In this document: piece after piece, positions 3,746 through 53,408 of the stretch
Numbering within the stretch: position 1 is the stretch's first letter
How the letters are laid out: each line of letters opens with the position of its first letter
Assembly: GCF_964204865.1 (NCBI RefSeq)
Contig: NC_135252.1
Location: 4,774,001 to 4,838,000 of the forward strand
Length of the DNA stretch: 64,000 nucleotides
Direction of reading: 5' to 3'
From: Styela clava
Lineage: Eukaryota
The notes under the pieces: generated by a model
What the model saw: the letters and a program-made list of their open reading frames with translations, nothing else
What the model was told of the DNA's origin: nothing
Databases searched by the model: none
Translations under genes and position numbers: made by a program

Positions 3746-3749
3746 TATA
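2667..3749. repeat. Pair of ~255-bp direct repeats (2667-2928 and 3501-3749)
   Basis: Both run accaagttgcactgca...gggcaggacgcgttatcgtcatcgtaccctacagg...attacccaatatcctata and are near identical by eye. Confidence 0.9.
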
Positions 3750-4836
3750 GTGCCCTTACATGGTCAAAAAATAACTAGAGAGGGAATATACTTATCATAT
3801 CGGATTGTATGTCTGCTATACACGCTATAAATAATAACTCGGATCAAATTAGTAATTTATCTTCAAATATTCAGACTTGTCTTTTTGAGTTACAGGAACA
3901 AGGATGCAAAATCACACTACTATGGGCTCCAGGACATGTTGGCATTCCGGGTAACGAAGTCGCCAACAAAATAGCAAAGGTATCAGCGGCGAAAGTCGGT
4001 GCGGACAAAAGATTATCCCAATCACGAAACAAAGTCAAATCACAAATTCGACAATTCTGCGCTAATAAATGGGATCAACATTTTATACAAAGTGACCAAG
4101 CGTTTCATTACAAGACAAATTTTCCCTCAATTGAAGACAGCATCAAGAATTCCACTTGGCCACCACGAATAATGGACAAAATTTTATTTCGACTTCAAAC
4201 GGGATATTGCCGTTTTTTAAATAAGCACCTCCATAAAATAGGATACCATAATAATGGACTTTGCGATTTCTGTAATGTTCCAGAGACAGTAAAACATTTT
4301 CTAATGAACTGTCGTGCATATAGAAATGAAAGACGCATACTAAAGATGAAATGCCGCGATTATGACATTGATTTTCAACTTAAAGCTATCTTACGCGACT
4401 CTAGCATTTTCCCTGCTCTTGTTGATTTTGTGAAATCTACCAAGAGAGTACTATGGGAATATACAAAGTTTGATTTAAATTGTCTGGCGCATAAGACTTA
4501 AATTGTTTAAAGCGCCATATACTTCCATACCACACACACATTACACAAAGATCGTCGAAAAAATACAGTTGTACAAACGTCATTACATTAATTACATATA
4601 TAAAATTACGGTAACCTGCTTGATTTCAACTACGTGCCATTGAAATATCCTAATTGTAGCATTGGCAAGTGCACATTCTTTAATTTTGAATTGTATTCAT
4701 CTATATAGATAGAAAGATGTTATGTTGAAATCTAAATGGGATCTAATAAAAATATATCAGTCGATATGTGCAACATGTTTTCCCGAGACCAACAAGAATA
4801 ATTTGCATTTTATTTATAATCTTTACATATTGATAA

Positions 4837-18700: not shown

Positions 18701-20939
18701 TTTTCTAGTCGTGACATCGTGGTAGGATGAAATCTATTATAATGGCTTGAGTTTACCGAGTTTATTGTAGCTATTTTCACAATTAATATGTTTTCGAATG
18801 CTGAATAATTAAGAAGAGCTGAAAGGGCATTGAGACAATCTGTTATTATCAATACACGTTCCGGTCTTGTTGTTGCGATCCATCTGAGACAACCCAGAAT
18901 TGTGTATAGCTCCGATGTATGTGAGGAGACAAAACGATGTTTAACCATTGTCAAATTCTAGAAGTAAAACATACCTTGTCATGAGTGTGGACTGTTTATT
19001 CCGGTGTGCTGTGAGTGAAATATGAAAAAGTGGCAATGAGCTGATCAGTCTTTTCGTAGTAAGAGCACAATAACATCGGTTTTTCAACAGAGGGGGATGT
19101 AATCTCAATAACGTTGCAGTCTGGTATAAATGCTCACATTTGGTGATGTTCAGCAGAAAGTTCCCCAAGTTCTCCGTCTTAAATTTATCCCTATGGTAGC
19201 GGTTCCCAAACTTTTTCTTCGCGAGGCGCCAAATTATCAGGGAAAGAACTCACGGCGCACTTAACACCTAAAATAGCTGCTTTTAAATAAAGTTCAATTT
19301 CATGATCGATAATGCGTACATTATACCTTTAAATTTTGTAAATATATAGATCTAAAGAATGAAGGCCAACGATCAACTCTTCTTCATCATCTCTGCCTGA
19401 GTTTCCTTTGAATTACTAAATAAATCATTCATGCTCGCTAAACTCGGTTCAGAAGATAAGAAAAAAAAATGCAGCTCGCGGAATTGCATCAAGTCGTATC
19501 TAACTATATATATTGTTACGTAACAATAGAGACACTAACTATGTAACAGAAAGTTATCGTAAATAGAAAGGTAAAATGGATTTATTGATTTATATACAAA
19601 GCATTTGAATTAAGAAATAATAAAACATTCATTATAATAAATACAAGAAGTAAAATTTTCAATCATATATTAGTTATGTTTAACATAATTCTGTTAATAT
19701 TCGCGGCCCCATTAACAAATCGCTATACCATTTGGGGACCGCTGCCATAAGAAGTTCACACCTTCAATGGAGAAACTAGGATAGGATTTTTTTTGCAGGA
19801 TTATTGTGATGTATTTTGCAACGATAGAAGATTTTAAAATTTGAACGTATATTAGTCCAATGATGCAAAAAAACAAGATAGCAAAAAGAAACAAACATAG
19901 TGAGCCAAGGAGGATTTCGTAAATTGTTCCATCTTTTACTGTACAAACAGAAAGTACTACTGATATTAACGGTATGGTCCATGAATTTCAAACCACTGAC
20001 CCCTCACCTAGCCAGTTTTTGGTGGTGATAAAAAATTGATAACAAAATTGAAGTCTAAAGTCAATAACTTAAAAGTCGACTTTGTTTTGGCATCCAGGAT
20101 CGAGGAATATTTGTTGTATCAAAGAATTGCTTTTCCGATTTTCCTATATGTGCCTCTCGGTGTGATTGTTGTTGTTTCTGTTATTATTATCGTCCAACTG
20201 CGGACATTGATACAATCTGAAATAGAAGACTCTCTCGATAGCACTGCTCGAATGAAGAGGAGAAGACAGACCATGCAGGCAGTATTGCAGTTAATGTTGA
20301 TTGTGATATCGTTCCTGATCGGATATGTCCCATTTACAGGTGAGACCTTAATTTATTGAAGCCACGTAAAAGTAGTTTTATAACACTCACTCGGTCTTCT
20401 ATGTCTCTTATAAATCAATACAATCAAGCCATAACACGTGAAAGACAAAGCTATACCGGCATAGATGATATTTTGTCAACGAATTCAACAAAAGATAGAT
20501 ACTGGAATGTTGGTGATACTTGACTTTTGGAAACTTTGGGTCTTCAATTCTAGTTAGGAAAACCTTTAAATTAAGCAGGTTATTTCCAATAATACATTTT
20601 ATAATATTCGACACATCGATTTTAAAGAGGTATTTTTACGATAATTACTATAATATTCAGTCCTAAATGCTATAGGCTACTTTTCAAATATTGAATAAAA
20701 ACACCTATTAATTTTGCATTTCAGCTTACGAATTTTGGAGTTTGCAACATCACCCAAATACTCGTTATCACCGAGTTTTCGATTACTGGTTCGGAATGTC
20801 TGAGTATCTTTGTATTAGATTTTCGGAATGCCTGAATCCTATCTTTTACAATATTGGCTCGAGTAAAATGAGAAAATGCACCATCATGTATATCAAAGAA
20901 AAATTTGGAGTGAGTGAGCCCCAAAATGCAAACAGATAG
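15729..20939 (+). CDS. Orphan class A GPCR, copy 2, 7 exons, 353 aa
   Basis: Exons 15729-15811, 16185-16313, 16887-17016, 17296-17418, 17830-17969, 20098-20339, 20725-20939. GT-AG introns; exons 1-6 have the same lengths as in copy 1; shorter C-tail. Confidence 0.92.
18241..18938 (-). mobile_element. 5'-truncated I-group LINE (RNase H fragment plus CCHC knuckle) in intron 5 of GPCR copy 2
   Basis: ORF 18400-18954(-): LIITDCLNALSAL, LFRLQSGHCALNAHLHKIG, CEQC..ETVAHYLLHC. (CAA)n tail. 13-bp TSD GTTTAACCATTGT at 18228-18240 and 18939-18951; the site is empty in copy 1. Confidence 0.92.
19197..19744. mobile_element. hAT (Charlie-like) MITE
   Basis: Ends tagcggttcccaaa / tttggggaccgctg; absent from the copy 1 intron; TSD degenerate. 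Confidence 0.6.
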
Positions 20940-35501: not shown

Positions 35502-37779
35502 TAAACTGTGAAAGTAAAGATTCAAACTCTACTGAGAAATTATATGGTAGTCCCATAAAGTTGTAAAAATGTTGATAAATCCTTTAAATTAATTTTGAAC
35601 ACTGTATCTTAAACGTATTTTTATATTATACAAGTTCCAAATCATTTCCTCTTAGTTATTCATTTATTTTATCTTATGTATCTAAAAGACTTTATTGGCA
35701 ATATCATAGTTACTGAGTCATCTTATTTACCCCGCCATGTATGATTCACTGTATGATTAGTATCATTTTCAAATGATAAAGGAAGTATGTTCAGTGAGTT
35801 TACTTTTAGTTATGGTCTGCATCCAATTTCGTAACATATAGTTCTTTCTTATAAAATTGTTGAATTTTCATAATATAATTATCTATCGCGGAAAATGGAA
35901 TAAAATGCTTTTTTTGAGTTGTAGAAGTCTAAAATATTCCCTTTTCCAAAACAAAAAAACAAAAGACAACAATTTTATTTATGAAAACTAGGCAGGCTCA
36001 CGTGCTTGATATTGTTCTGATCGATGAAGCAATATTTCCCCTAAATATAATGTTCAGTGTTTATGACAATCTTTTTTGGGCATCGGGTAATGTGGTGCAC
36101 CCATCCCACTGTGAAATATTTGACCCACGTTCAACACTGAGCCTCGACAGTAAGTTATGTGAATTGTTCCATAAGATCGATAAATCAATAAAGTGATTTC
36201 AAATTATCAACAAGTTGCAATACGCCGGTATTAAATATTTATAGTTTCAATGCATCTGTTACAATGACGCTCAAATTAATTCTGATACCTTATTTAACCT
36301 CCAGGTTGGTTGTTATACTATTCGAAACAAACATTACAAAAAAGTAAGATGTTTGCATAGAAATGACACCACGGAAGTGCGTTTTATATAAAATCATCAC
36401 CAGTCCTAAGATTGAATTCGACCTGCTTTTGTGTGACTCCTATTTTGAAGACCCAGCAGGCAGAATCTTGGCAACAGCTAAATCCTTATAGATACCAAAT
36501 GAATAACCTATCCAATATGCGAAGGTATCAACAACAAAAATTCGGCATGCTGAACCAGTGTAGTAAACCCTGGTAGCGCCAATAGACTTTATTCATTAAA
36601 AACCCATCCTACGCGCAAAAAGAAAAGTGATGTAAAAAAAACAATTTTAACATTAGCTCTTATGGGGATTGTGATCACCAGAGCAGAAATTTGCATTTTT
36701 TGTAATTTTCTAGATATCTTTCATTGTATACGTGAGCAGTCTTGAGGATAGAATATTTTTTACATCTTTTTTGATATTTTTATCATGATAAACATGATCA
36801 AGATTTTTGATAATCGTTCATTAAAATTTTAATGAGCGCGGTGTTTCCGATGACGTCATTCTCACTAGACCATGAGATTCTGCCAACGCCCCGTGCTCTG
36901 TGGGAATGGGATATGCGCTGCAAATGCGGCGCTAATGTCGCTTTGGGTACGGTGTCGGTACCGGTACTGGAAGCGTTTACCATTGACAATCTATAACCCA
37001 TACCATTTCTATCATGTTTGTTTAATGGTTTTAGGTATTTATACTTGTACAGCTAGCAATCATTTACTGAAGGCATGCTTACGTGGTATTTAAACTACCG
37101 GTACCGTACCAAGGCTGCAAGAGGTGAAAACTAAATTATTTAGTAAATACTGAAATAGGCCTACGAACAAAAATGTTGGCCAGCCTGCCAATAGGCAGGA
37201 TAAGTTGTACGGTACCGGTATACAAAAAAGATGAATATCTCCAACCTATAACGGTACAATACCGGTCTCCTAACTAGGTTAATAAAACATGACTGAATAC
37301 GAGAGAGAGATTTATTTCGTCAACCAGAATACAAGCATTGAATCAATAAAAAATAGGCCTATATTCAAAACACACAGTTATTCGGTTTAGACTGGGGATC
37401 GATACGACCATCACAGTCAGCTCCCCCTGCCCACCAAAGTTACCCTAGCAGACATCTCTCAGCAGACATCTCTCTCGTTTTTGAACGCGCCGATCACCGT
37501 TGCCAGAACTCAGATTTCAATTGAGCGATGCGAGAGTTTACGGAAATGGCATCGATGCAAAATCATCCGATGCTTTATGCGTTGCCAGATTAATCATAAA
37601 AACTGTGAATAATTGCCAAAAAATCACAGTTCTCCCCAAAATATAAGCGTCTCACAAATAAATCCGCTTAGTATAAGAAAGATAAGTATAAGTGCTTATA
37701 ATAGGAAGTAAACACAACGCGTTTAACAAAGATTGTATAGGTGGAAGAGATACCCATTATCGTTTAAACCTGTCCCAGT

Positions 37780-39365
37780 CGTCAATTTTTAATAAAATTG
37801 GTAAAAAGACCTATTTTACCCCCAAAAAGAGGTGTCTTGCAGTCATTGCCCTCTCCATTTATAAATAAACAGCAGTGGTACATTTTATAAAGTGTTTATA
37901 CAACGAGTTTCAAAAAGTTTGTATGGGGGAAGATATTTTTATTCTCGTTTAAACATGACCCGCTTGTCAATTTATGATAGAAATGGCAAAAAGACCTCTT
38001 TTGCTCCAAAAAATGAGTGTCTTGCAATTACGGTCCCCACATTCACAAAAGACCAGTAGTAGTACATATAATAAAGTGTTAATACAGCGAGTTTGAAAAA
38101 GTTTGTATGGGGGGAAGATATTTTTATAATCGCTTAAACATGGCCCCATAGTCAATTTTTGATAGAAATGGCAAAAAGACCTATTTTGCCCCCAAAAATG
38201 AGTGTCTTGCAATAACGGGCCCTTCATTTACACAAGACCAGTAGTAGTACATATAATAAAGTGTTAATAAAGCGAGTTTGAAAAAGTTTGTATGGGGGGA
38301 AAATATTTTTATAATGGCTTAAACATGGCCCGATAATCACTTTTTGATAGAAATGGCAAAAAGACCTATTTTGCCCCAAAAAATGAGTGTCTTGCAGTTA
38401 TGGGCCCCTCATTTACACAAGACCAGCAGTAGTACATATAATATAGTGTTAATACAGCGAGTTTGAAAAAGTTTGTATGGGGGAAGATATTTTTATAATC
38501 GCTTAAAACATGGCCCGATAGTCAATTTTTGATAAAAAATTGCAAAAAGACCTAGTTTTCCCCAAATAATGAGTGTCTTGAAATTACGGGCCCCTCATTT
38601 ACACAAGACCAGTAGTAGTACATATGATAAAGTGTTATTACAGCGAGTTTGAAAAAGTTTGTATGGGGGAAAAATATTTTTATAATGGCCCAAACATAAC
38701 CCGATAATCAATTTTTGAAATGGCAAAAAGACCTATTTTGCCCCCAAAAATGAGTGTCTTGCAGTTATGGGCCCCACATTTACACAGAACCAGAAGTAGT
38801 ACATATACCAAAGTGTTTATACAGCGAGTTTGAAAAAGTTTGTATGGGGAGAAGATATTTTTATTATCGCATAAACATGGCCCGATAGTCAATTTATGAG
38901 AAAAATGGCAAAAAGACCTCTTTTGCCCCAAAAAATGAGTGTCTTGCAGTTATGGGCCCCACATTTACAATAGACCAGTAGTAGTACATATAATAAAGTG
39001 TTGATAAAGCGAGTTTGAAGAAGTTTGTATGGGGGGAAGATATTTTTATAATCGCTTAAACATGGCCGATAGTCAATTTTTGATAAAAAATGGCAAAAAG
39101 ACCAAGTTTTCCCCAAAAAATGAGTGTCTTGCAATCACGGGCCCCTCATTTACACAAGACCAGTAGTAGTACATATAATAAAGTGTTAATAAAGCGAGTT
39201 TGAAAAAGTTTGTATGGGGGGAAAATATTTTTATAATGGCCCAAACATGGCCCGATAATCAATTTTTGATAGAAATGGCAAAAAGACCTATTTTGCCCCA
39301 AAAAATGAGTGTCTTGCAATTATGGGCCCCACATCTACAAAATACCAGTAATAGTACATATATTA
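37780..39365 (+). repeat. Tandem array of ~185-bp units (~8.5 copies) in the left TIR
   Basis: aaatggcaaaaagacc recurs at 37981, 38166, 38351, 38537, 38718, 38903, 39088, 39273. Confidence 0.95.
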
Positions 39366-39435
39366 ACCGTACATATAACCGTAAGAACAATTTTCATACT
39401 TTTATAGCTCTCATCGCTCATCGTCCATCTTATGC

Positions 39436-39638
39436 GGTGACCGTACATTTGAACCCATGTACATTTGAACCCATGTGTATATCCGCGGGTTCAATCAATA
39501 TGCGGGTGCTAAAACCCATGGGTTAGGTTAGTATGAGTACAAATGTCCGTAAAACCGAAAAAATTTCCATAGGTGCAATGGCATGCAGGTGCAATTGTCG
39601 TGGGTTCAAATGTACGTGTGTTCAAATGTAATGGAACC
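39436..39638. mobile_element. Mutator-type MITE inserted at the start of the transposase coding region
   Basis: GG..CC ends with inverted acatttgaac repeats; perfect 9-bp TSD ATCTTATGC (39427-39435, 39639-39647). Confidence 0.88.
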
Positions 39639-40335
39639 ATCTTATGCTGATGTGCTTTCGCATGGACGTAAAGCGCGTGCACCAGATACAGTTGTCAGGT
39701 CTCTATCGGATGTCCCTTCCCCCCACCTCTATCCTTCAGAGTTCTTGCCTTACATCTCTAAAGACTTCACCCCCATCCGCACAGTCTTTTAGTCCATCTT
39801 ATACTGATGTGCTTCTGCGTGGACTAAAAGGACGTGCTACAGCCACAATTGCCAGACCATTGTCGCCTGTTTCTATTCCCATCCTTCGGAGTTCTTGCCT
39901 TCTTTCTAATCCTTCTCCCCCATCCGCACTGACTTTTAGTCCATCTTATGCTGATGTGCTTCTGCGTGGACTAAAAGGACGTGCTACAGCCACAATTGCC
40001 AGACCATTGTCGCCTGTTTCTATTCCCATCCTTCGGAGTTCTTGCCTTCTTTCTAATCCTTCTCCCCCATCCGCACTGACTTTTAGTCCATCTTATGCTG
40101 ATGTGCTCCTGCGTGGACTAAAAGGGCGTGCTACAGACACGATTGCGAGATCATTGTCGTCTGTTTCTATTCCCATTCTCCAGAGCCTTTGCCTTACTGC
40201 TAATCCTTCGCCTCCACCCGCACATACTTTAATTTAAGTCCATCTTATGCTGATGTGCTTCTTCGTGGACTAAAAGGGCGTGCTACAGACACGATTGCGA
40301 GATCATTGTCTCCTGTTTCTTTGCCCGCACATACT
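39639..40335 (+). repeat. Coding tandem repeat, 147-bp (49 aa) unit, ~5 copies
   Basis: agtccatcttat at 39791, 39938, 40085, 40237; unit SPSYADVLLRGLKGRATATIARPLSPVSIPILRSSCLLSNPSPPSALTF. Confidence 0.9.
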
Positions 40336-43228
40336 TTGACTCCATGCAATGGTGATGTGCCTTCGCGTGGGCTTGAAGACAGTGTGCCACATAAAGTCTT
40401 GGTACCTGTGCAGTCTCACAATAGTGTGTCACATGCAACTCGTACCGACGCTAACTCTTCACAGAACATTGCAATGTCATCTTTTCGCCGTCGATCTTTT
40501 CGACAAAATACAGAGTTTCCGACTTCTGCCCTGCCTAGTTACCCGATTTGCACTGTTCTTTCCAAATCTATTTCTGACAAAGTATCATTGCATAGTGATA
40601 AACCAACAAATATTGAATGTCTTAATTTTAATCGGCCAAGTCAGGCCATTACAGATTTTAGTCGTCTTGAATACTCACTCTTAGCATGCAAGCAGTCGGG
40701 AGGTGTGTTCTGTTGCTCTGAAATTTCGATTAAGTCATTTATTTCGGGAATTGACGGACTGGGTTCATTCAATCCAGATTGTGGCAACGACTGGGTCAGA
40801 TTAGCAAATGTAATTTGGAAAAAGAAGTTTGCAAAAAGTGCTTTGAAAAATGCCATCCGAAAATTAAAAAAATTTTGGAACAAAAATGCAGCAAAAAGTA
40901 AAAGTCAAAGTTTAGTATTTTCGGTTCAACCCTCAGAGGCAGTAGAAACGCTTCCGTCTACTGACGGAACAATTGATATTTTCGACCATCCTGAAGTACC
41001 GGCATTCAGCGACACCATGTCGGATGACAATTTGCCCAATTTATACTCTCATTTGGAAAACGAAAAAGACAGTGAAATTTACGAAAAAGAACGTAAACAA
41101 TTTGGCGATTCACCAAAACAATCTAAGCGTAAAAATTTGATTTTAAAAAGTAACACACCGACTGACCGCAGCAGGGCATGTAAATTATCTAACGCAATAA
41201 CCAGCGAGGAAGATTTAAAAGAGGTTAGTCAAAATTTAAATATATTTTTCAATTCGAACAAAACTGATCAACCTCCAGGTCCAGTGCAAGCGTCTGTCGT
41301 GATGGAATGCGGAAATCCGCAAAGTAAAGCTAAGTTTCGAATGGATGAAAAAATTTGGAGTAACCTTTTTAAATGCGTTATTGGGGGGCGAATAAAAAAT
41401 CCGGACTGGGTCGATGTCATTAGAAATGCTATTAAAAAAAGTGACCCATACTGTTCGTATGCATTTAGATGGCATACTGTAAATTCGGGAGACTTTTCTG
41501 AACGCGTTTTCGCTTGCAGTGGACATTGTGGCTTCTCGGGCTGCAGTCGTAAAATATCTGTAATAACCTTAGAGAGGACCCTCGCATGTTCCATGTTAGG
41601 TATACGGGAAATAGGTATCACGTTGGTATTAAATCAATCCAACTTAAGGGTAAACGGCGGGAGGCGGGTGCCCTCTCCTCCGATGTTTTTCATTCTGGTA
41701 ATAGGGACGATGCTCCGTCACAGGCGGTGTTAAATAAGGCGCGATATGAGGCTAGATTGGTAAATGTCCCAGATTTCGATGATCAATGGAATTCGCTTGA
41801 CTGTTTGAGAAAATTTCAGGCCAGAAAATGCAACAATAAATTAATTCGTGGAACCTTGCAGCAAATTTCACGAGTTCCTCCAGGTATTATGTTGTGGTCG
41901 GAACAGTCTGTAAGAATATTCATCCAAAATGCTCAAATTGACATAATTTATATTTACGCTACTGGTGGGGTACTGCCTTCTGGTGCCCAAAGCCCATATT
42001 ACATTTACGAAATAGTTACTCGCCATCCCCAAAAGGACAAATCCCCATTTGCTGTTGCAACGTTTGTTACGAATCGGCACAACATTGCAAATATTTCGAA
42101 CTTTTTGTCACAATTCCGTTCTGATGTTTCCAAATTGACCAAACGATTTCCCGCAAAAGTTTTTATATGTGATGGTAGTATGGCCCTCATTAAGTCGATA
42201 ATTCAGGTAAACATGCGCGAAAGTTTAGAGGCCTACATATCACGCTGTTATTCGGTCATTCAAGGCAGTGCAAATTTGGATATGCTTTCCCGACCCTTTC
42301 TTCACCTATGCACCAGCCATACCATGAAATATTTTGAGCAATTGGCGTGTAGGGTTCCAAAAGTAAAGCGGGAATTCATGCATATATTTGGGTTGCTTGT
42401 TTGCTGCGAGGAAATTAAAAATTTTGTAAAATTATTTATCATTTGACAATATTATTGATATCCCTGAATTCGAATCTTGTTGATAATAGCTGGTCGTACT
42501 TGAAAAAGCGTATCGAAAAACAAAATATTCCACCTCCACCCGAATGTGCTTTCGATCATGAAGCATCGGGTGAACTTTTACCAGATGCAGACTGGAGTGA
42601 GAGTAATCCTTTTACCGAATTACTATATCTGGATATTGCTAGAGCTACAAAAATTGCTACTGACGCGGTTTTTTGTGGTTCTAACTCTTTTTATTGTCCG
42701 GAAGTAATGACTAAATTTAAAACGTTTCATGTACCCAAAATTTGTCTATGGGGCACTTTGCTAGTAGGTGATTTAGGCAGGTTTGGTACAACAATAGGCT
42801 ATGAAAAGTATAAGCAATTTTACGCAAAATCATCGGTCTCTAACAAACAGAACTTAGCAAAAGATAATCGAACACAGGGAATCATGGAGAAAAGTCAACA
42901 GGAGCTAAAGCGTACTCGTTTCAACAACAGGCGGTTTAAACGTCTTGACGAGATCGCTGTAGTGTATGATCAACTTCATGATTCCCTAATTAGGGAATAT
43001 CAGGATAATTTGATTGCTCGTCCCAAAAAAAGGAAAGTCGATAACAGAGACCAAATTGACCAAGAAATTGAGAAATGGGGTAAAAGATGTAGAAATATGG
43101 GTAATGATAAATCGAAAGGTATATATTTACAGCCACCGTCTAGACCTCTGAAAGCTTCTTGCCCAATAGAATTGCTTGATAATGATGTATTGGAAACGGA
43201 AATAATATGTTAGCGGTCTTCTCAGTCA

Positions 43229-44032
43229 ATGGCATTGCGATTTAGATCACCCAAAATTGATTTTCGAAACTTGGTACATATGTCCATCGTTGACTTTGAA
43301 ATATTGAGCTCCAATACCAATTTCCGAAGGAATTGGTTCACATCGGACATTATAAATACCGCATCGCTAATTTTGTCATCGCAGTACCCGAATGCTGACG
43401 GCCTTCAAAGCACGACACTTTATACCACAATATCTGGCCCAAAGGTCTACGCTCCTTTCAAAAAATTTATTCAAATTTTGTTCGTGCATGATAATCACTG
43501 GGTAGCTGCGTCAAACATATTTTCTTTCAATCAGAATACCATTCAAATCTATGATAGTTCGTACTTGAAATACACAGAAAATGACAAATATGCTATTTCG
43601 CTTCTCATGCGGCCAACATTAGGAACAAACAAACTACAGATTGAATTTCCTCCCGTCCAGCAACAAACGTTAGGTGCATCATGCGGACCATTTGCAATAA
43701 GTTTTTGCATAGCTTTATGCGAAAGAATTAGACCAGAGGATATAGTTTTCCATGAGATAAATCTGCGAAAAAAGATTTATGATGGCATAAGTTCTAAACG
43801 ATTGTCACCAAATTTTAATATCGACCGAAACCACAATAAAACCAATACGAAATTTATGGATATTCAGATATTTTGTAACTGCCGACTGCCCTACATACAA
43901 AATCAGACTATGATAGAATGCACTTCATGTTTGGAATGGTACCACCCGGAATGTTGCAATACTCCTGTGCCAACTGAGGCACTGGAAGATTGCAAAATTG
44001 AATGGCATTGCGAGAAGTGCAATCGATGCTAA
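43229..44032 (+). CDS. Ulp1/peptidase C48-like SUMO protease domain plus C-terminal PHD finger (C-terminal part of the transposase)
   Basis: WFTSDIIN, HDNHWV, IYDS, QQQ..SCGPFA (H-D-C triad plus Q); FCNCRLPY..MIECTSCLEWYHPEC..WHCEKC (C4HC3). Confidence 0.85.
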   Translation: MALRFRSPKIDFRNLVHMSIVDFEILSSNTNFRRNWFTSDIINTASLILSSQYPNADGLQSTTLYTTISGPKVYAPFKKFIQILFVHDNHWVAASNIFSFNQNTIQIYDSSYLKYTENDKYAISLLMRPTLGTNKLQIEFPPVQQQTLGASCGPFAISFCIALCERIRPEDIVFHEINLRKKIYDGISSKRLSPNFNIDRNHNKTNTKFMDIQIFCNCRLPYIQNQTMIECTSCLEWYHPECCNTPVPTEALEDCKIEWHCEKCNRC

Positions 44033-44339
44033 ATTTTTTCGTTATATATTCACCATTTGCCTAACTCCAATTATTTTTCAGATCCATCGGCTTCATGGAC
44101 ACACAAATGATCAGTCTATTTTACCTTTTGCAGTATATGCCAAAGTTAAGGGTTTTCTCTCTCTATCGATCGTCGCCAGTTTTGAGATGAAAACCACCAC
44201 GATAGTTGGCACCTTGACGTGGTGTGGTGGCTTACTACTAAGACCACTAATTATCCAATGCAATAAGTGTGTCTTCTACCCCAAGTGTAAATGGGGGACC
44301 CTGATTATAAGACATTTTTTTTAGGGGCGAACTATGTCA

Positions 44340-45595
44340 TTTTGCTATTTCTATCATAAATTGACTAGTGGGCCATGTTTAAGCGATTATAAAAATATCT
44401 TCCCCCCATACAAACCTTTAAAACTCGCTGTATAAACACTTTATTATACGTACTACTGCTGGTCTTGTGTAAATGTGGGGCCCGTAATTTTTTGAAGCAA
44501 AAAAGATCTTTTTACTAAAATATCTTCCCCCCATACAACATTTTTCAAACTCGCTGTATAAACACTTTATTATATGTACTACAGCTGGTCTTGTGTAAAT
44601 GTGGGGCCCGTAATTGCAAGACACTCATTTTTTGAAGCAAAAAAGAGCTTTTTACTATTTCCATCATTAATTGGGCCTTTTTTAAGCGATTATAAAAATA
44701 TCTTCCCCCCATACAAACTTTTTCAAACTCGCTGTATTAACACCTTATTTTATGTACTACTACTGGTCTTTTGTAAATGTGGGGACCGTAATTGCAAGAC
44801 ACTCATTTTTTGGAGCAAAAGAGGTCTTTTTGCCATTTCTATCATAAATTGACTAACGGGCCATGTTTAAGCGATTATCAAAATATCTTCCCCCCATACA
44901 AACTTTTTCAAACTCGCTGTATTAACACTTTATTATATGTACTACTGCTGGTCTTGTGTAAATGAGGGGCCCATACCTGCAAGACACTCATTTTTCGGGG
45001 CAAAATAGGTCTTTTTGCCATTTCTATCAAAAAGTGATTATCGGGCCATGTTTAAGCCAATATAAAAATATTTTCCCCCCATACAAACTTTTTCAAACTC
45101 GCTGTATTAACACTTTATTATATGTACTACTACTGGTCTTGTGTAAATGAGAGGCCCGTAATTGCAAGACACTCATTTTTGGGGGCAAAATAGGTCTTTT
45201 TGCCATTTCTATCAAAAATTGACTATGGGGCCATGTTTAAGCGATTATAAAAATATCCTCCCCCCATACAAACTTTTTCAAACTTGCTGTATTAACACTT
45301 TATTATATGTACTAATACTGGTCTCTTGTAAATGTGGGGACCGTAATTGCAAGACACTCATTTTTTGGAGCAAAGAGGTCTTTTTGCCATTTCTATCATA
45401 AATTGTCAAGCGGGTCATGTTTAAACGAGAATAAAAATATCTTCCCCCATACAAACTTTTTGAAACTCGTTGTATAAACACTTTATTAAATGTACTACTG
45501 CTGTTTATGTATAAATGGAAAGGTTCATGATTGTAAGACGCATCTTTTTGGGGACAAAATAGGTCTTTTTACCAATTTTATCAAAAATTGACGAC
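44340..45595 (-). repeat. Inverted tandem array of the same ~185-bp unit (~7 copies, innermost ones partly deleted) in the right TIR
   Basis: Reverse complement of the 37780-39365 units (ggtctttttgccattt..., cccccatacaaactttttcaaactcgc). Confidence 0.95.
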
Positions 45596-46660
45596 TGGGA
45601 CCGGTTTAAACGATAATAAGTATCTCTTCCACCTATCCAATCTTTGTCAAACTCGTTGTGTTTACTTCCCTTTATAAGCACTTATACTTATCTTTCTTAT
45701 ACTAAGCGGATATATTTGTGAGACACTTATATTTTGGGGAGAACTGTGACTTTTTGGCAATTATTCACAGTTTTTATGATTAATCTGGCAACGCATGATT
45801 TTGCATCGATGCCTTTTTCGTAAACTCTCGCATCGCTCAATTGAAATCAGAGTTCTGGCAACAGTGATCGGCGCGTTCAAAAACGAGAGATCTGGCAACG
45901 CATAAAGCATCAGCTGATTTTGCATCGATGCATTTTTTGTAAACTCTCGCATCGCTCAATTGAAATCTGAGTTCTGGCAACAGTGATCGGCGCGTTCAAA
46001 AACGAGAGAGATGTCTGCTAGGGTAACTTCGGTCCCTTGTCCCTCCATGTTCGCTATCAAGATTAACAGTTAATTAAGATGTTTGAACAATCTAACAAAA
46101 ACTCCTTGGAGGAAGGGTCGACTAAGTTACGGAATATTTTCGGATTCGGTTAAAAATGTAGTCCATTATTAAACCACTGCTTTTTTTGTAGATTTTCACT
46201 TAGTGGACACTTAGCAAGTACGGCAGGTAATTTATAAAAAAAAAATTTAAATTAATAACAAATCAGTACAAGTCAGCCCGGGTATTCAAACATGTGATGA
46301 TTGACGTGAGAAAAAAATTTGAAGTCACGTTTAGGATATTACATTGAACAACAATGGAAAAGGTACATTGGAATCAGTCAAGCTTCAAATGCTAATGGCA
46401 TTAATGAAAAGAATATGCGACATGAAGACTGAAGTTTCCATCTGAGACATTGGAAGACGCTAAAACCTTAGACTTGATAGTGTGGAAAGCTTTCTCACAA
46501 TGCAGTAATAATGGGACATATATTTATAATATCATTATACAGGCTTTAAGTTGAACTATATGTTTAATTAAAATACCTATCTTTGCTAATAAATGCTGAA
46601 AACCATTTATTTCAATCTGCTGAGTGATTAGGGTCAGAAATTTGCTGTAGGGACCATCAC

Positions 46661-47144: not shown

Positions 47145-49458
47145 AACATCACCAATTTTGTGATAGGTAGGTACATGATGTCAACATATGAACTGAGTTA
47201 GGCCATTGGATTTTGAAAGGTGTACCAGAAATGTACATAGTTACATGAAATTCATGAAATATATATCATCCAATAAAAACCAAAATAGGTCTTTCGTTGA
47301 ACGCCAGTTGTGGTCCCGGTACCGGTATTCCAGTATTCTGTCATCCCAAGCAGTTGGAGCGCATATCCCACAGAGCACGGCGCGTTGGCAGAATCTCATG
47401 GTCTAGTGAGAATGACGTCATCGGAAACACCGCGCTCATTAAAATTTCAATGAACGATTATCAAAAATCTTGACCATGTTTATCATGATAAAAATATCAA
47501 AAAAGATGTAAAAAATATTCTATTCTCAAAACTGCTCGCGTATACAATGAAAGATATCTAGAAAATTTTAAAAAATGCAAATTTCTGCTCTGATGATCAC
47601 ATTCCCCATAAGAGCTAATGTTGAAATTGTTTTTTTTACATCACTTTTCTTTTTGCGCGTAGGATGGGTTTTTAATGAATAAGGTCTATTGTAGAAGCTT
47701 GACGGGGTGTGACCTTATGCACCCTGCTTGCTACGCAAAGACGAAGGGCGCTGAACCGTGCGCCAATATTTTTCAGTCTAAACGCTCTTAGAGTCTAGCC
47801 TATCCCAATACAGCAATGGTCCAGACAATCCTCTCCAAATTATCCCGTCTTATAACTGAGATAAGCAAACTGAAGTCCACAAGCCCACAATACGCAACTT
47901 TAAACACAGGAGAATTGTAGCCTAATGTGTCGTGAAATTATCAAGCACTTGCTCAGCACAAAATATATAATCGAGATGTCAGATGGAGCCAAATAGATTA
48001 CGGAAACAGATGACAAATACAGATAGAGATGAGATATAGATAGAGAGAGGTTTTCTAAAGAAAAGAAAATACACTATAAATTTGCCGCATAAATAACTAA
48101 CATGCAATCAAATTATATCGCTTACCGACTGTTTTTAGCCAAGGTCAACAATATATCGAATCTTTTATGTAACTGCAGAACACTGAAATAAACATGAACA
48201 AATAAGCACCACAGTAACAGTACTTAACCCTACAGCATTAATTGTGGCAATAAATATAATACCAACAGTATTTCATCCAAATAGGACTACTACATAACAA
48301 GCCAAATGCAATGAAATACAGAAAACTCACCAAGAATATTTCACAAAACAATCAAAACGCAGGACAGATTCACAAAATGCAGTTCAACAATCCAGAGTTC
48401 AATGCAGCAAATTTTAAACTATTAGCAAGTTAAATAAGCATGATACAAAGGAAACCATAATTAGCCCACTATATTTAATATGATACAGCTTTTTCTAATG
48501 CTAAATCGCCATAGAAGTAACGCATTGCAACAGCAAACTAGCTGTGCACATTTACAATTTCGGCCCTAACGCGAGCGATATAATAACGATGTAAACACGC
48601 AAATTGCAGTAGACAGAAACCTTCTCGGCTCGGTCTACAGATAATAGAGAAACACATCAAATGAGACGTTTGCGACGTTGACAAACGAAAAGATGCAAAC
48701 GTGTCAGCAATAAAGAAATAGACACTACCGGCACTGGAGATCTAACAGCAATAGCTTACTTTACAGAATATAAAAAATACATGTTCACAGGCGGCGCCGC
48801 CCCGTACATTTGTTATATTTATCCCCATTAGAATAGTGTGATTAGGCGCGTGTGCCAGTTTGCAGTTGTTTGATTGCGTTTCATTGATATTTTCATACTG
48901 TTGTAGCGTACCGACAGTCTATGAAATAATTATCCAAGTTCAGAATATCTTCCAATATGATCTGACGTCAAGTTCCCTCTCAATATTCACTCCAGGTCAT
49001 GCTATTTTATTCTATTTATTAATTATCCTCCAATGAAACGGTTAATACAACCAAACACTCCGAAGAAACGGAAAGCACACAACAAAAACAACAATACCAG
49101 GCAGTGAAATGTAAGAAAACGAAATACACCATAAAAACACTAAAGAAGTTACTTATAATTTGAAAAACACGCTGAAAATTAACTTATGACAGGCATTTTA
49201 AAAGACGATAAACAATTCTATATGTGCATAACATTTGAACAGTACTGATCATAGCTAATTCCATGATAAAACAACACTAAATGAACTGCAATGGCCCTCC
49301 TGTACTGAAACAATAATATCAGCCCACTGTCTAGCATAAAAACATTCAACAAATCCCCATCCCACAGTCACAAAACAACAAACAAACATCCCCGATCACC
49401 CACCGGAGACCAGAGGCACTCCCTCAGACACTCAAAACCAAGCATCCAATCGAAAAAC

Positions 49459-49760: not shown

Positions 49761-49784
49761 ATTTAAGAAACTAAAATCTTAAAT

Positions 49785-52700
49785 ATGGATGCATCGATGA
49801 AACCAGTGAGACTTGACCTAAATCTGAATTCTCCAAGCGCGGCAAAGGAATGGAAGCACTGGCGAAAAACATTTGAGAACTACATTGAAGAATTAGAGAT
49901 GAGTGTACAAGAGGGCCAGTCTGTGAATAAACTCAAGAGGCTAATCAACTCAGTATCTCACAATGTTTATGAATATATTGAAGATGTGGACGCTTATAGT
50001 AAAGCTATGGAAGTGCTACATAACTTATATGTCAAGACGCCGAATGAAATATTTGCACGACATCTGCTAGTTACGGCAAAGCAACAAACTGGTCAATCCA
50101 TCGACGAATTTTTACAAACTCTGCGTAATCTAAGTAAAGATTGTAATTTTAAAGATGTTTCTGCCGCGCAGTACCGCGACGAACTTATACGTGATTCTTT
50201 TATCAATGGTATTTTGTCAAATAACATCCGACAACGTCTTTTGGAAAACAAGGACTTGACTCTTGAATTAGCGTTTTCACAAGCTTCATCACTTGATCTG
50301 GCGCAACGTAATTCGTCAGCATATGAAGCATCTCGAATCGACGAATTGCAACCTTCGGCATTGGCCACTTCCGAAACCTCTTTCGACAATGAAGGTATAG
50401 TAACTGGCCGTATAACAGGGCGAAAATGTATATTCTGTGGATATAATTACCACAATCGTCAAAATTGTCCCGCACGCAATGCCAATTGCTACAAATGCGA
50501 TAAAAAAGGCCACTTTGCCAAAGTTTGCCGATCAAAGATGAATAAATCTGAAGCCTCTTCATCTATAACGGCGTCAGTAAATCCATCAGTCCACGATTTG
50601 CAATCAGCACCACGTTGTTTACTGCCGGCAACACTTCCAGTTGTCATAGCTGGTCGCAATACAACTGCGTTGATAGATACCGGAAGCTCTCTCTCTTTTA
50701 TAAACGAAAAGACTGCGAGAATGCTACGTTTGAAAATTTTGCCTTCACGGGAAAATGTAGTGATGGCTGTCCAGCATCTGCAAGGAACGACTATTGGATC
50801 CTGTTTAACTGATATGATAATTGGTAGTCGTTCATATACCAAAGTGCCTCTTAAAGTATTTCGAGGTCTTTGTTGTGATTTATTGCTCGGTCAGGACTTT
50901 CAAAGACAACATGAAAGAGTCATTTTCCCTTTTAACGGCTCTCGTCCTGAACTTCTAGTTCAATATGAATCAAAAGTATGTGGTTTAGCTGCTGCAAACT
51001 ACACCCCGGCTTCGTTATTTTCTAATCTCATGAAAAATTGTCATCCGATAGCTGTCAAATCTCGCCGTTTTGGCGCGTTAGACAAAGAATTCATCGCTAA
51101 AGAAGTTTCGAGAATGTACAACGAAGGAATTATCAGGCCAAGTTCTTCGCCGTGGAGAGCACAGCCTTTAGTTGTGAAGGATCCATTGACCTCAAAACGA
51201 CGATTGTGCATAGACTATTCACAAACGATAAACATTTATACAGAGCTAGACGCCTATCCATTGCCGCGAATTGATGATATGGTTAACGAACTTGCTGGAT
51301 ATTCCTGGTTTTCCACCTACGATCTGAAATCCGCGTATCATCAGATTCCAATATGCCAGCAAGATAAAATTTTCACTGCGTTTGAAGGCGATGGTAAACT
51401 CTGGGAATTCAATCGTATTCCATTTGGAGTGACCAATGGAGTACCAGCTTTTCAGCGGATAATGGATGAAATTGTGGAAAAAGGCAATCTGAAAGATACA
51501 TTTCCATACCTCGACAATGTAACTATAGCTGGACATACAAAAGAGGAGCATGACTATAATGTGAAGAAATTTCTCGATACTGTTAAGAAAAACAATTTAA
51601 CATTAAATGATGCAAAAACAGTATCAAGTGTACGAAAAATTAACATTTTGGGATATACAGTGGGTAATAATTCAGTAGCTCCAGATCCCGAACGCCTAGC
51701 TCCATTGAGAGAACTCCTACCTCCAACAAATAGTCGCGCTCTGCAAAGAATAATTGGACTTTTTGCGTATTATTCGAAATGGATTGTAAACTTTTCAGAC
51801 AAAATGCGACGACTCCGCCAAGCGAAAACATTTCCTTTAGATTGCGCTACAGTACAAGACTTCGAATCACTAAAAAGAGAAATCGGAAATGCCACTTTGA
51901 GCTCAATTGATGAGCATGTTCCATTTGTTGTAGAATGCGACGCATCGGAAATTGCAATTTCAGCCACACTGAATCAAGGAGGGCGACCAGTGGCATTTTG
52001 GTCGCGTGTTCTACAGAAGAGCGAGAGGTTTTATCCTGCTGTAGAAAAGGAGGCAACGGCAATCATTGAAGCTGTGCGAAAGTGGGCCCATTTTCTGGCA
52101 AGACGTCCATTCACTATCGTGACCGACCAGCGATCGGTTTCTTTCATGCTAGATAACCGTCGTCGATCCAAAATAAAGAATAATAAAATTCAGTCCTGGA
52201 GGCTGGAACTAGCCTCTTTCAGTTACGACGTTAGATATCGACCTGGAAAACAAAATGCCGCACCTGATGCTTTAACACGTTCTACATGCGCATCAGTTTT
52301 TCCCACGTCATTGCAAGAAATACACGAAGGTTTATGTCACCCGGGCGTCACAAGACTTCTACATTTCGTCAAATCGAAAAATTTGCCTTTCTCGACTGAT
52401 GACGTTAAAAGAACTTGTAAATTATGCCGCGTATGTGCGGAACTTAAACCGAAATTTTATTCCCCACCGTATGGCACATTAATCAAGGCCACACGGCCAT
52501 TTGAAAGACTGAGTATGGACTTCAAGGGACCTTTGCCATCGCGGACAAAGAACGTATACATGCTAACCATTGTCGATGAATATTCTAGATTTCCATTTGT
52601 ATTTCAATGCACCAATCTTTCTTCCGCTTCAGTAATAAGCTGCCTTGAAAAATTATTTGCTCTGTGCGGACTACCTGGTTATATACACTCTGATAGAGGA

Positions 52701-53408
52701 AAATCTTTTATGTCTGCGGAACTAAGGGATTTTCTGCTGAAACGTGGTGTAGCCACCAGTCAATCCTCGCCTTATCACCCAATTGGAAACTCCCAAGTTG
52801 AACGATTCAATGGAATCATATGGAAAGCCGTGCGTTTATGCTTGCGTACATATAATCTGCCTATCACACATTGGGAATATGTGTTACCGAAAGCTCTTCA
52901 ATCGCTCCGATCTTTGCTTTGCACAGCAGTCAATGCAACTCCACATGAACTATTTTTCAACTTCCAACACCGCTCTCCCAGTGGTCATTCAATGCCTACC
53001 TGGTTGTGCGAATCAAAACATGCTTTTCTGCGGAAATTCGTTCGTTCGCACAAAAATGACGATTTGGTTGAACAAGTGGAACTAAAAAATGTGAATCCCG
53101 CATATGCTCGAGTTCGTTTTTCTGATGGGCGGGAGAGTACGGTATCGTTAAGAGACTTGTCCCCTTGTCCAGTCTCCCAACGATCTTCAAGTCACGATAG
53201 AGAGTCTCAAGACTTTTCTCCTGAAGATAGTGAAACACGTACTAATGCGTCACCACTAAATGATGGATGCAACGTCGACCGAAATGAAGAGTTCAAAATT
53301 GAAATTCCAATTAGCTCTGACAATGCTAATAATGAAAGGATTGCCACACGTCGTTCAACTCGAACTAACATTGGTGTTCCACCAGAACGCTATGGTTTTG
53401 AAATATAG
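49785..53408 (+). CDS. Gag-Pol polyprotein, 1207 aa (Gag, protease, RT, RNase H, integrase)
   Basis: Two Zn knuckles (CIFC..H..C, CYKCDKKGHFAKVC), protease LIDTGS, RT (DLKSAYHQ, PFG, YLDN), RNase H (CDAS, EKE, TDQ), integrase HHCC plus D-D-E (SMDF, HSDRG, VERFN); Gypsy domain order. Confidence 0.97.
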   Translation: MDASMKPVRLDLNLNSPSAAKEWKHWRKTFENYIEELEMSVQEGQSVNKLKRLINSVSHNVYEYIEDVDAYSKAMEVLHNLYVKTPNEIFARHLLVTAKQQTGQSIDEFLQTLRNLSKDCNFKDVSAAQYRDELIRDSFINGILSNNIRQRLLENKDLTLELAFSQASSLDLAQRNSSAYEASRIDELQPSALATSETSFDNEGIVTGRITGRKCIFCGYNYHNRQNCPARNANCYKCDKKGHFAKVCRSKMNKSEASSSITASVNPSVHDLQSAPRCLLPATLPVVIAGRNTTALIDTGSSLSFINEKTARMLRLKILPSRENVVMAVQHLQGTTIGSCLTDMIIGSRSYTKVPLKVFRGLCCDLLLGQDFQRQHERVIFPFNGSRPELLVQYESKVCGLAAANYTPASLFSNLMKNCHPIAVKSRRFGALDKEFIAKEVSRMYNEGIIRPSSSPWRAQPLVVKDPLTSKRRLCIDYSQTINIYTELDAYPLPRIDDMVNELAGYSWFSTYDLKSAYHQIPICQQDKIFTAFEGDGKLWEFNRIPFGVTNGVPAFQRIMDEIVEKGNLKDTFPYLDNVTIAGHTKEEHDYNVKKFLDTVKKNNLTLNDAKTVSSVRKINILGYTVGNNSVAPDPERLAPLRELLPPTNSRALQRIIGLFAYYSKWIVNFSDKMRRLRQAKTFPLDCATVQDFESLKREIGNATLSSIDEHVPFVVECDASEIAISATLNQGGRPVAFWSRVLQKSERFYPAVEKEATAIIEAVRKWAHFLARRPFTIVTDQRSVSFMLDNRRRSKIKNNKIQSWRLELASFSYDVRYRPGKQNAAPDALTRSTCASVFPTSLQEIHEGLCHPGVTRLLHFVKSKNLPFSTDDVKRTCKLCRVCAELKPKFYSPPYGTLIKATRPFERLSMDFKGPLPSRTKNVYMLTIVDEYSRFPFVFQCTNLSSASVISCLEKLFALCGLPGYIHSDRGKSFMSAELRDFLLKRGVATSQSSPYHPIGNSQVERFNGIIWKAVRLCLRTYNLPITHWEYVLPKALQSLRSLLCTAVNATPHELFFNFQHRSPSGHSMPTWLCESKHAFLRKFVRSHKNDDLVEQVELKNVNPAYARVRFSDGRESTVSLRDLSPCPVSQRSSSHDRESQDFSPEDSETRTNASPLNDGCNVDRNEEFKIEIPISSDNANNERIATRRSTRTNIGVPPERYGFEI

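What the first reader, a model, noticed from the sequence alone, without database searches (positions are those of the whole stretch)
37433..46033. Foldback Mutator element whose transposase carries a SUMO-protease and a PHD chromatin reader
Seen: 9-bp TSD-like flanks, kilobase modular TIRs, and a MULE D-D-CxxH-E core. ORFs 42443-43213 and 43229-44032 are in the same frame, separated by one TAG, so the protease and PHD were C-terminal domains of the transposase. The H-D-C triad is intact. Established: Ulp1-type domains occur in some Mutator elements; FB-NOF-type foldbacks belong to Mutator; SUMOylation is needed for transposon silencing. Inference: a single protein could cut and paste, read histone marks and locally deSUMOylate silencing machinery. 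Similar architectures are, as I recall, reported for Rehavkus-group elements, so the family is more likely new than the concept.
Basis: partly seen in the sequence, partly recalled or inferred. Interest (0 to 1): 0.75.

Follow-up and report, generated by a model that had tools for sequence, protein, structure and literature searches.

The report
Foldback transposase with esterase, protease, reader
This is a dead copy of a recently active sea-squirt cut-and-paste transposon whose intact sister copies encode the transposase, a tag-removing-type protease and a histone-reading finger in one frame (a layout already described), and also carry spliced exons for a predicted lipid esterase that likely joins the front of the same protein, an add-on I did not find described for this kind of element.

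Summary
Window 37433-46033 is a decayed copy of a multi-copy foldback element with 185-bp-repeat arms; 12 of 13 other paired copies have perfect 9-bp target duplications. The TAG at 43211 is GAG in 10 of 10 other copies read, and three copies hold transposase, C48 protease and PHD in one open frame. The core is Mutator-type: D-D-CxxH-E is conserved and the best fold match is ISCth4. In the window copy the first catalytic Asp is mutated, with frameshifts and deletions. 'SUMO protease' is not established: SENP3/5, the deneddylase SENP8 and Ulp1 tie, and Ulp1's SUMO-contact Asp is missing. The PHD has an H3K4me3-type cage, pointing to active chromatin. Ulp1+PHD on Mutator transposases and Rehavkus anatomy are published, and this scan noted such elements in this genome before. 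New here: full copies carry about 2.9 kb that the window copy lost. It holds three spliced exons of an SGNH esterase under purifying selection, in phase with the transposase exon (one intact 1,618-aa model). Only the two esterase introns are RNA-supported; the fusion is inferred.

The parts
37424..37432 (.). left 9-bp target-site duplication CCCCTGCCC
   Evidence: sequence; perfect 9-bp TSDs in 12 of 13 other paired copies
37433..39366 (.). left foldback arm: ~330-bp terminal part plus 8.7 copies of a 185-bp repeat (37759-39366)
39366..39371 (+). junction of a ~2.9-kb deletion that removed the 5' region and the three SGNH-esterase exons present in full-length copies
   Evidence: window resumes at position 6899 of the 15,118-bp intact copy, whose left array ends at 4028
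39371..44032 (+). remnant of the long last exon (low-complexity region, transposase, C48 protease, PHD); 97.7% identical to the intact copy over 40.2-44.3 kb; broken
39436..39638 (.). secondary 203-bp MITE insertion (GGT...ACC ends) with perfect 9-bp duplication ATCTTATGC
39630..40326 (+). 147-bp coding tandem repeats (Ser/Pro-rich low-complexity linker)
41326..43090 (+). Mutator-type DDE transposase core, broken: D1 codon 41955 mutated to Tyr, D2 42171, CxxH 42309-42320, E 42887; 1-bp deletions at 41569 and 42416; 54-bp deletion ~41664; NLS-like RPKKRKV 43019-43039
43211..43213 (+). premature TAG (GAG, Glu, in sister copies)
   Evidence: 10 of 10 copies read
43331..43800 (+). C48 (Ulp1/SENP-fold, CE clan) cysteine protease domain with intact His 43496, Asp 43553, Gln 43664, Cys 43682
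43859..44029 (+). PHD finger with F/Y/M/W at the four PHF2 H3K4me3-cage positions
44286..46033 (.). right foldback arm: 6.2 copies of the 185-bp repeat (44517-45659), a 119-bp duplication near the end, terminus at 46033
46034..46042 (.). right target-site duplication CCCTTGTCC (7 of 9 matches)

Best explanation
The window holds a dead copy of a recently active Rehavkus/NOF-type foldback Mutator transposon whose intact copies encode a DDE transposase, a C48 protease and a PHD finger in one frame, likely preceded in the same spliced protein by an SGNH esterase; the transposase likely cuts and pastes, the PHD likely tethers it to H3K4me3-marked active chromatin, and the protease likely strips ubiquitin-like tags from the transposition complex or its neighbours. 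Shown: multi-copy mobility with 9-bp duplications; one open frame; conserved catalytic residues; purifying selection on all four modules; splicing of the two esterase introns. Inferred from known Mutator biochemistry (Muta1, PMC5499845): binding of the subterminal repeat arrays, excision through flanking hairpins, strand transfer. Inferred from residues only: H3K4me3 reading. Inferred from family comparison: what is selected is removal of ubiquitin-like tags in general (SUMO, NEDD8 or ubiquitin). This most likely protects the DNA-bound transposase from tag-driven removal, or tunes repair at the break. My rough odds for the main substrate: SUMO 0.4, ubiquitin or several 0.3, NEDD8 0.2, self-processing 0.1. 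The esterase most likely acts on membranes or lipids to place or carry the protein, by analogy with LINE ORF1p esterases; this step is the weakest.
For: Mobility: 41 terminal matches (a lower bound); 12 of 13 paired copies with perfect 9-bp TSDs at different sites; 8 of 9 other copies 98.8-99.9% identical to the intact copy over 1.1 kb, the window copy 97.7%. One frame. Core: D, D, C, H, E present in 59, 59, 56, 59 and 59 of 62 near-full-length relatives. The AlphaFold model (pLDDT 82) matches ISCth4 best: Foldseek E=1.1e-3; VIA Z 11.4, rmsd 5.4, 267 aligned, against P element 9.5 and Hermes 8.9. Selection (dN/dS): C48 0.09, 0.06 and 0.25; PHD 0 of 13 changes non-synonymous in subfamily B and 0.23 in A/A'; DDE 0.10-0.23; SGNH 0.07 (dS saturated; CI to 0.17) and 0.28. 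PHD: best PDB hits are PHF2/PHF8, with a gapless F/Y/M/W match to Y7/Y14/M20/W29. Tag removal as the theme: of 34 long relatives scanned, 16 have a USP/UCH hit (14 above cut-off), 11 C48, 8 both, 11 PHD. Esterase: Pfam Lipase_GDSL_2 E=2.5e-10; S-D-S-N, P-G-G, G-T-N-D and D-G-L-H motifs; uninterrupted 1,618-aa spliced model for the copy at G000:C13 ~1.02 Mb. GT..AG joints for both esterase introns appear in contigs of runs X3 and X4 (one study). In-phase donor/acceptor into the transposase exon in subfamilies A, A' and B. The NCBI model XP_039273931.1 makes that join in subfamily B, and the Ciona model XP_026693744.1 joins a related esterase to C48+PHD.
Against: No activity was measured for any domain. 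The two RNA contigs that cover the esterase exons leave the last donor for a sequence that is not the transposase exon and is not found in the assembly; they also carry a 1-nt deletion. Three of four Styela NCBI models that hold the esterase end just after it, and one foldback element (L132) carries only the esterase exons. Subfamily B has lost the esterase's catalytic Asp (GRLH/GGLH) and has His at one PHD cage position. Only one examined family-A copy gives an unbroken full model; a second (L034) breaks at codon 532. Only 1 of 150 listed relatives (the Ciona model) shows the esterase, although most of these predictions would miss upstream exons. Pfam MULE does not hit the core (1 of 34 long relatives, below cut-off). 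The ISCth4 match is modest.
Confidence: 0.72

Rival explanations
1. One reading: the protease is SUMO-specific and the PHD brings it to silenced copies, where it deSUMOylates the piRNA/heterochromatin machinery (anti-silencing).
For: Foldseek ranks SENP5, SENP1 and Ulp1 above SENP8. SUMO is needed for transposon silencing in Drosophila (10.1101/533091, PMC10363806; search listing only). C48 is under purifying selection.
Against: VIA-align ties SENP3/SENP5/NEDP1/Ulp1. The sequence profile ranks SENP8 first (2e-12 against 1.3e-10 for Ulp1). Ulp1 N450/D451, needed for SUMO binding (PMC3216068 passages), is replaced by T/S here and varies across relatives. Relatives swap or add USP deubiquitinases. 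The PHD cage is of the active-mark type.
Confidence: 0.2
2. The esterase is a separate small gene carried by the element (a second ORF, like mudrB/VANC, or Pack-MULE-type cargo) and is not part of the transposase polypeptide.
For: RNA contigs splice the esterase exons to another sequence. Stand-alone 210-221-aa NCBI models exist, as does an esterase-only foldback element. Platyfish Helitrons carry a separate SGNH gene (PMC4021074 abstract).
Against: In-phase splice sites into the long exon in three subfamilies 44-68% identical. In subfamily B the esterase exon runs on as a 355-aa open frame up to the donor. The long exon of family A has no Met for its first ~210 codons. XP_039273931.1 joins the two.
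Confidence: 0.3
3. The C48 domain processes the element's own polyprotein into separate esterase, transposase and reader parts, as viral CE-clan proteases do at Gly-Gly sites.
For: ASFV pS273R, poxvirus I7L and adenovirus protease share the fold (Z 10.9, 9.8, 9.0). Subfamily B has RLLGGGG just after the splice into the long exon. That those proteases cut at Gly-Gly sites is recalled, not from a call.
Against: No such motif at the matching place in family A. Cellular SENP-type folds match better (Z 14-15). Relatives without an esterase also carry C48 or USP domains.
Confidence: 0.1
4. Protease and PHD are neutral hitch-hiking host fragments with no role in transposition.
For: MULEs capture host fragments readily (PMC6446971 passage). 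The C48 type differs between relatives that share the transposase.
Against: dN/dS 0.06-0.25 for C48 and 0-0.23 for PHD, against 0.62 for the low-complexity N-terminal region of subfamily B. Triad kept in nearly all relatives.
Confidence: 0.04

Closest known systems
Rehavkus elements (Repbase; outgroup or subgroup of MULEs; PMC6446971 passages and supplement search, 10.1101/2024.12.02.626372 passages)
   Same: 9-bp TSD, foldback arms with subterminal tandem repeats, PHD finger in the transposase, DDE core with CxxH
   Different: Described from arthropods and annelids as one ORF with 26-400-bp TIRs. Here a chordate (tunicate) host by NCBI labels, arms of 1.8-3.7 kb, introns, a C48 protease and an N-terminal SGNH esterase. 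No Rehavkus sequence was available for direct comparison.
Mutator and Ginger1 transposases with C-terminal Ulp1 and PHD domains (PMC2836005 passages: hydra, lancelet, plants)
   Same: transposase-Ulp1-PHD order in one protein; role in transposition proposed, untested
   Different: No foldback arrays or esterase are mentioned in the passages read; Ginger has a Gypsy-like integrase.
ISCth4 (IS256/Mutator family, PDB 6XG8/6XGX) and Aedes Muta1 (PMC5499845 passages)
   Same: best fold match for the catalytic core; DDE with (C/D)xxH and helical insertion; long TSD; subterminal repeats
   Different: 9-10% identity; no accessory protease, reader or esterase
SGNH esterases of mobile elements: ZfL2-1/CR1 ORF1p (PMC3905857 abstract and passages), Helitron-borne texim (PMC4021074 abstract), Terminon GDSL ORFs (PMC6431247 passages)
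   Same: SGNH fold with Ser/Gly/Asn/Asp-His motifs carried by a transposable element
   Different: Those are retroelements or rolling-circle elements. Here it sits in a cut-and-paste TIR element and is predicted to be spliced to the transposase.
KDZ/Zisupton-type transposases in the same genome (L048, L049; Pfam CxC4)
   Same: C48+PHD tail of the same clade of protease domains (99/98 support)
   Different: unrelated transposase; L048 adds a weak SprT-like domain

Membership tests
Mutator/MULE superfamily (broad, including Rehavkus) | 8-11-bp (typically 9-bp) target-site duplication | tested here: met
   12 of 13 paired copies perfect 9 bp; window 7 of 9
Mutator/MULE superfamily (broad, including Rehavkus) | long terminal inverted repeats | tested here: met
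   1.8-3.7-kb arms in 9 copies plus the window
Mutator/MULE superfamily (broad, including Rehavkus) | DDE triad with (C/D)xxH after the second Asp | tested here: met
   D/D/C/H/E in 59/59/56/59/59 of 62 relatives; first Asp mutated in the window copy only
Mutator/MULE superfamily (broad, including Rehavkus) | RNase H fold with helical insertion closest to IS256/Mutator structures | tested here: met
   ISCth4 top in Foldseek (E 1.1e-3) and VIA (Z 11.4 against 9.5 next); margin modest
Canonical MULE (Pfam PF10551) | match to the MULE profile above cut-off | tested here: not met
   no hit for window or intact proteins; weak sub-threshold hits in P0007 and P0157 only
Rehavkus/NOF group | PHD finger in the transposase | tested here: met
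Rehavkus/NOF group | subterminal minisatellite or tandem repeats in foldback arms | tested here: met
   185-bp arrays
Rehavkus/NOF group | phylogenetic placement with Repbase Rehavkus or FB-NOF transposases | not testable with these tools
   no named Rehavkus/NOF sequence was available; Repbase and Dfam not held
SUMO-specific Ulp1/SENP proteases | CE-clan fold with His-Asp-Cys triad and oxyanion Gln | tested here: met
SUMO-specific Ulp1/SENP proteases | WLND motif with the SUMO-contacting Asp (Ulp1 D451) | tested here: not met
   WFTS in the window and family A; position assigned by motif alignment
SUMO-specific Ulp1/SENP proteases | cleavage of SUMO in preference to NEDD8 or ubiquitin | not testable with these tools
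   needs an assay; structural matches tie
H3K4me3-reading PHD fingers (PHF2/PHF8 type) | four-residue cage Y7/Y14/M20/W29 | tested here: met
   F/Y/M/W without gaps in families A and A'; F/H/M/W in B; binding itself untested
SGNH/GDSL hydrolases | blocks I, II, III, V with Ser, Gly, Asn, Asp-x-x-His | tested here: met
   SDSN, PGG, GTND, DGLH in family A; Pfam E 2.5e-10; Asp lost in subfamily B. Not present in the window copy.

The most novel reading that the evidence does not exclude
Ascidian Rehavkus-type foldback elements make one ~1,600-residue protein that joins an active lipid esterase to the transposase, a ubiquitin-like-tag protease and an H3K4me3 reader, and the esterase is needed for transposition. 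A cut-and-paste DNA transposon would then use membranes (nuclear envelope, germ-cell or cell-to-cell traffic) the way LINE ORF1p esterases are proposed to.
Probability: 0.3. Interest if true: 0.72.

Novelty: new variant of a known kind. Interest (0 to 1): 0.47.

Why it matters
The transposase-Ulp1-PHD layout has been in print since at least 2010, but I found no test of what the extra domains do. This family is young (copies about 99% alike), has an intact copy and comes from an experimentally accessible animal, so it makes the question testable: which tag is removed, and whether the PHD steers insertion to active promoters. The added esterase is conserved across at least five subfamilies in this genome and seen in a Ciona model. 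It extends the unexplained link between SGNH esterases and mobile DNA from retroelements and Helitrons to cut-and-paste elements. That argues for a general, non-RNA role of lipid esterases in transposition or transmission.

Tried and rejected
Pfam on the window's transposase pieces and on the intact protein gave no MULE hit. No run listed was on record as RNA; those used are guessed RNA, kept as contigs. No contig crossed the esterase-transposase junction in family A or in subfamily B (swamped by short repeats in the 5' region); this lack of cover says nothing either way. The sequence that follows the esterase in two RNA contigs was not found in the assembly (0 matches with up to 1 mismatch) or in held loci. 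A search for long proteins fused to the esterase was mis-sized (it searched 1251-3570 aa) and found nothing, which is weak evidence. The shorter-query search found only four Styela models. PDB sequence search with the esterase gave only weak SGNH hits (E 0.07). dN/dS between families A and B is saturated and was not used; window-versus-intact ratios have intervals spanning 1. No complex prediction was run, because one job cannot rank SUMO against NEDD8 and ubiquitin. Yuan and Wessler 2011 was not held. Literature searches for an SGNH/GDSL esterase in a TIR or Mutator transposon (supplement search of PMC6446971) found none. Repbase Reports and Dfam, where Rehavkus/NOF elements are described, were not searchable and may already mention it. 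Rejected: two separate genes split by a genuine stop (GAG in all other copies read); chance TSD; neutral capture of protease and PHD.


Full report
1. What is in the window. The element runs from 37433 to 46033. Its arms are a terminal ~330 bp plus arrays of a 185-bp repeat, 8.7 copies on the left and 6.2 on the right. The flanks match at 7 of 9 bases. The frames 42419-43213 and 43214-44032 are separated by one TAG. The second holds Peptidase_C48 (E=9.6e-7) and PHD (E=1.1e-4) with an intact His-Asp-Cys triad and Gln. The transposase pieces give no Pfam hit of note.

2. It is a decayed member of a young family. The protease-PHD part has 96 matches in the 377-Mb genome (a lower bound). NCBI labels a protein from one copy as Styela clava. 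Of 13 other copies whose two ends could be paired, 12 have perfect 9-bp duplications at unrelated sites. Ten copies compared span 6.1-15.1 kb, with arms of about 1.8-3.7 kb. Eight of nine other copies are 98.8-99.9% identical to the intact one over 1.1 kb; the window copy is 97.7%. Three copies have open frames of 1182-1423 codons through transposase, protease and PHD. The window copy is dead: first catalytic Asp to Tyr (41955), two 1-bp deletions, a 5-bp insertion, a 54-bp deletion, the stop, a 203-bp MITE with its own 9-bp duplication, and a ~2.9-kb 5' deletion.

3. The transposase. A profile search of 1.84 billion representatives found 424 proteins at E<=1e-30; named ones include fish. Among 62 near-complete cores, D332, D404, C450, H453 and E643 (P0001 numbering) are present in 59, 59, 56, 59 and 59. 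The AlphaFold model (pLDDT 82) matches ISCth4, the solved IS256/Mutator transposase, best in both Foldseek (E=1.1e-3) and VIA-align (Z 11.4, next 9.5). Pfam MULE is not met. The anatomy fits Rehavkus as summarised in PMC6446971 (passages): 9-bp TSD, PHD, subterminal minisatellite. I could not compare with named Rehavkus or NOF sequences.

4. The protease. The fold is Ulp1/SENP (model pLDDT 84.5). Substrate is open. Foldseek ranks SENP5, SENP1 and Ulp1 first. VIA-align ties SENP3 15.0, SENP5 14.9, NEDP1/SENP8 14.7 and Ulp1 14.4. A sequence profile ranks SENP8 first (that alignment mixes two C48 types). The WLND motif, whose Asp is required for SUMO binding in Ulp1 (PMC3216068 passages), reads WFTS. 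Of 34 long relatives chosen from the 150 listed, 16 have a USP/UCH hit, 11 C48, 8 both and 11 PHD. A tree of 36 C48 domains puts this one in a clade with those of KDZ-type transposases from the same genome (99/98), apart from the C48 of most fish relatives that share the transposase (midpoint root, no formal clade test). The module is thus likely swapped between elements, and the common theme is removal of ubiquitin-like tags.

5. The PHD. Best PDB matches are PHF2 and PHF8. It has F/Y/M/W without gaps at the cage positions Y7/Y14/M20/W29 (PMC9898751 passages). This predicts reading of H3K4me3, an active mark, which favours targeting to open chromatin over action at silenced copies. It does not exclude early anti-silencing at transcribed copies.

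6. Full-length copies carry three coding exons upstream of the long exon: an SGNH/GDSL esterase with SDSN, PGG, GTND and DGLH. An NCBI model of it hits Lipase_GDSL_2 at E=2.5e-10, and the Atlas look-alikes are eukaryotic SGNH clusters at 0.95. Contigs of two guessed-RNA runs from one study show both introns removed at GT..AG (first intron in X3, second in X3 and X4). The last donor is in phase with the transposase exon, giving an unbroken 1,618-aa model for the copy at G000:C13 ~1.02 Mb. In-phase sites also exist in subfamily A' (68% identical over the protease-PHD part) and B (44%), and NCBI model XP_039273931.1 makes the join in B. Esterase exons also lie in two further foldback subfamilies with 184- and 195-bp repeats, one with a transposase and internal PHD, one alone. 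A Ciona intestinalis model joins a related esterase to C48+PHD. Against fusion: the two RNA contigs continue from that donor into a sequence absent from the assembly and carry a frameshift; three NCBI models stop after the esterase; subfamily B lacks the esterase Asp.

7. Selection (Nei-Gojobori). B1/B2: N-terminal low-complexity region 0.62, DDE 0.23, C48 0.09, PHD 0 non-synonymous of 13 changes, esterase last exon 0.28. A/A' and A/A'': DDE 0.10-0.14, C48 0.06 and 0.25, PHD 0.23, esterase 0.07 (dS saturated). All modules were maintained by selection while the element was mobile.

8. Comparison with what is known. PMC2836005 (passages) already aligns Ulp1 and PHD domains of Mutator and Ginger transposases and proposes a role in transposition or repair; PMC12903978 (passages) notes MULE-ULP fusions in rice. 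Rehavkus foldback arms are described in 10.1101/2024.12.02.626372 (passages). Muta1 gives the excision mechanism and the role of subterminal repeats (PMC5499845 passages). SGNH esterases are known from CR1/L2 ORF1p (PMC3905857 abstract and passages), Helitron-borne texim (PMC4021074 abstract) and Terminons (PMC6431247 passages). PMC13359780 and PMC7599744 were seen as passages only. Searches found no esterase in a TIR or Mutator element; Repbase and Dfam could not be seen and may bear on this. Earlier notes of this scan describe similar dead protease-PHD foldbacks in this genome, and one esterase-Ulp1-Mutator cluster in another genome; these are unchecked notes, not support.

9. Verdict. The family is a new variant because of the conserved, spliced esterase. 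Interest 0.47.

Noticed in passing
window 39436-39638: 203-bp MITE (GGT...ACC ends, 16-bp internal repeats, perfect 9-bp TSD) inserted in the element; a similar 16-bp repeat occurs inside a subfamily-B copy. Likely a non-autonomous Mutator-type family.
   Followed up: partly
window 36580-36927 and 47350-47691: 348-bp inverted repeat pair (94% identical) bracketing the element at 0.5 and 1.3 kb; probably two copies of a dispersed repeat, possibly an older host element.
   Followed up: no
G000:C3 ~4.29 Mb (L031, L120): A copy shares the window element's right end and about 390 bp of right flank (90%), i.e. a duplication of the end with host DNA; it preserves the original TSD.
   Followed up: partly
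L048:2928-7691, L049:2823-6548: KDZ/Zisupton-type transposases (CxC4) with the same clade of C48+PHD tail; L048 ends in a weak SprT-like domain.
   Followed up: partly
L132 (G000:C10 ~23.47 Mb): Foldback element with 184-bp repeat arms that carries only the three esterase exons (NCBI model P0159).
   Followed up: partly
L084/L087/L089 (G000:C5 ~13.67-13.69 Mb): The last esterase exon amplified as a ~175-bp tandem array.
   Followed up: no
L135 (G000:C16 ~17.49 Mb): Distant subfamily (195-bp repeats) with esterase exons and a PHD placed before, not after, the DDE core.
   Followed up: partly
window 49767-53408: Intact-looking 1213-aa gag-pol frame of an LTR retrotransposon (zinc knuckle, protease, RT, RNase H, integrase motifs by eye).
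   Followed up: no
window 621-4501 and 18400-18957: Broken LINE-type RT/RNase H fragments (by eye).
   Followed up: no
P0138: A distant relative of the transposase carries a Macro domain (E=8e-9), another reverser or reader of a protein modification.
   Followed up: no
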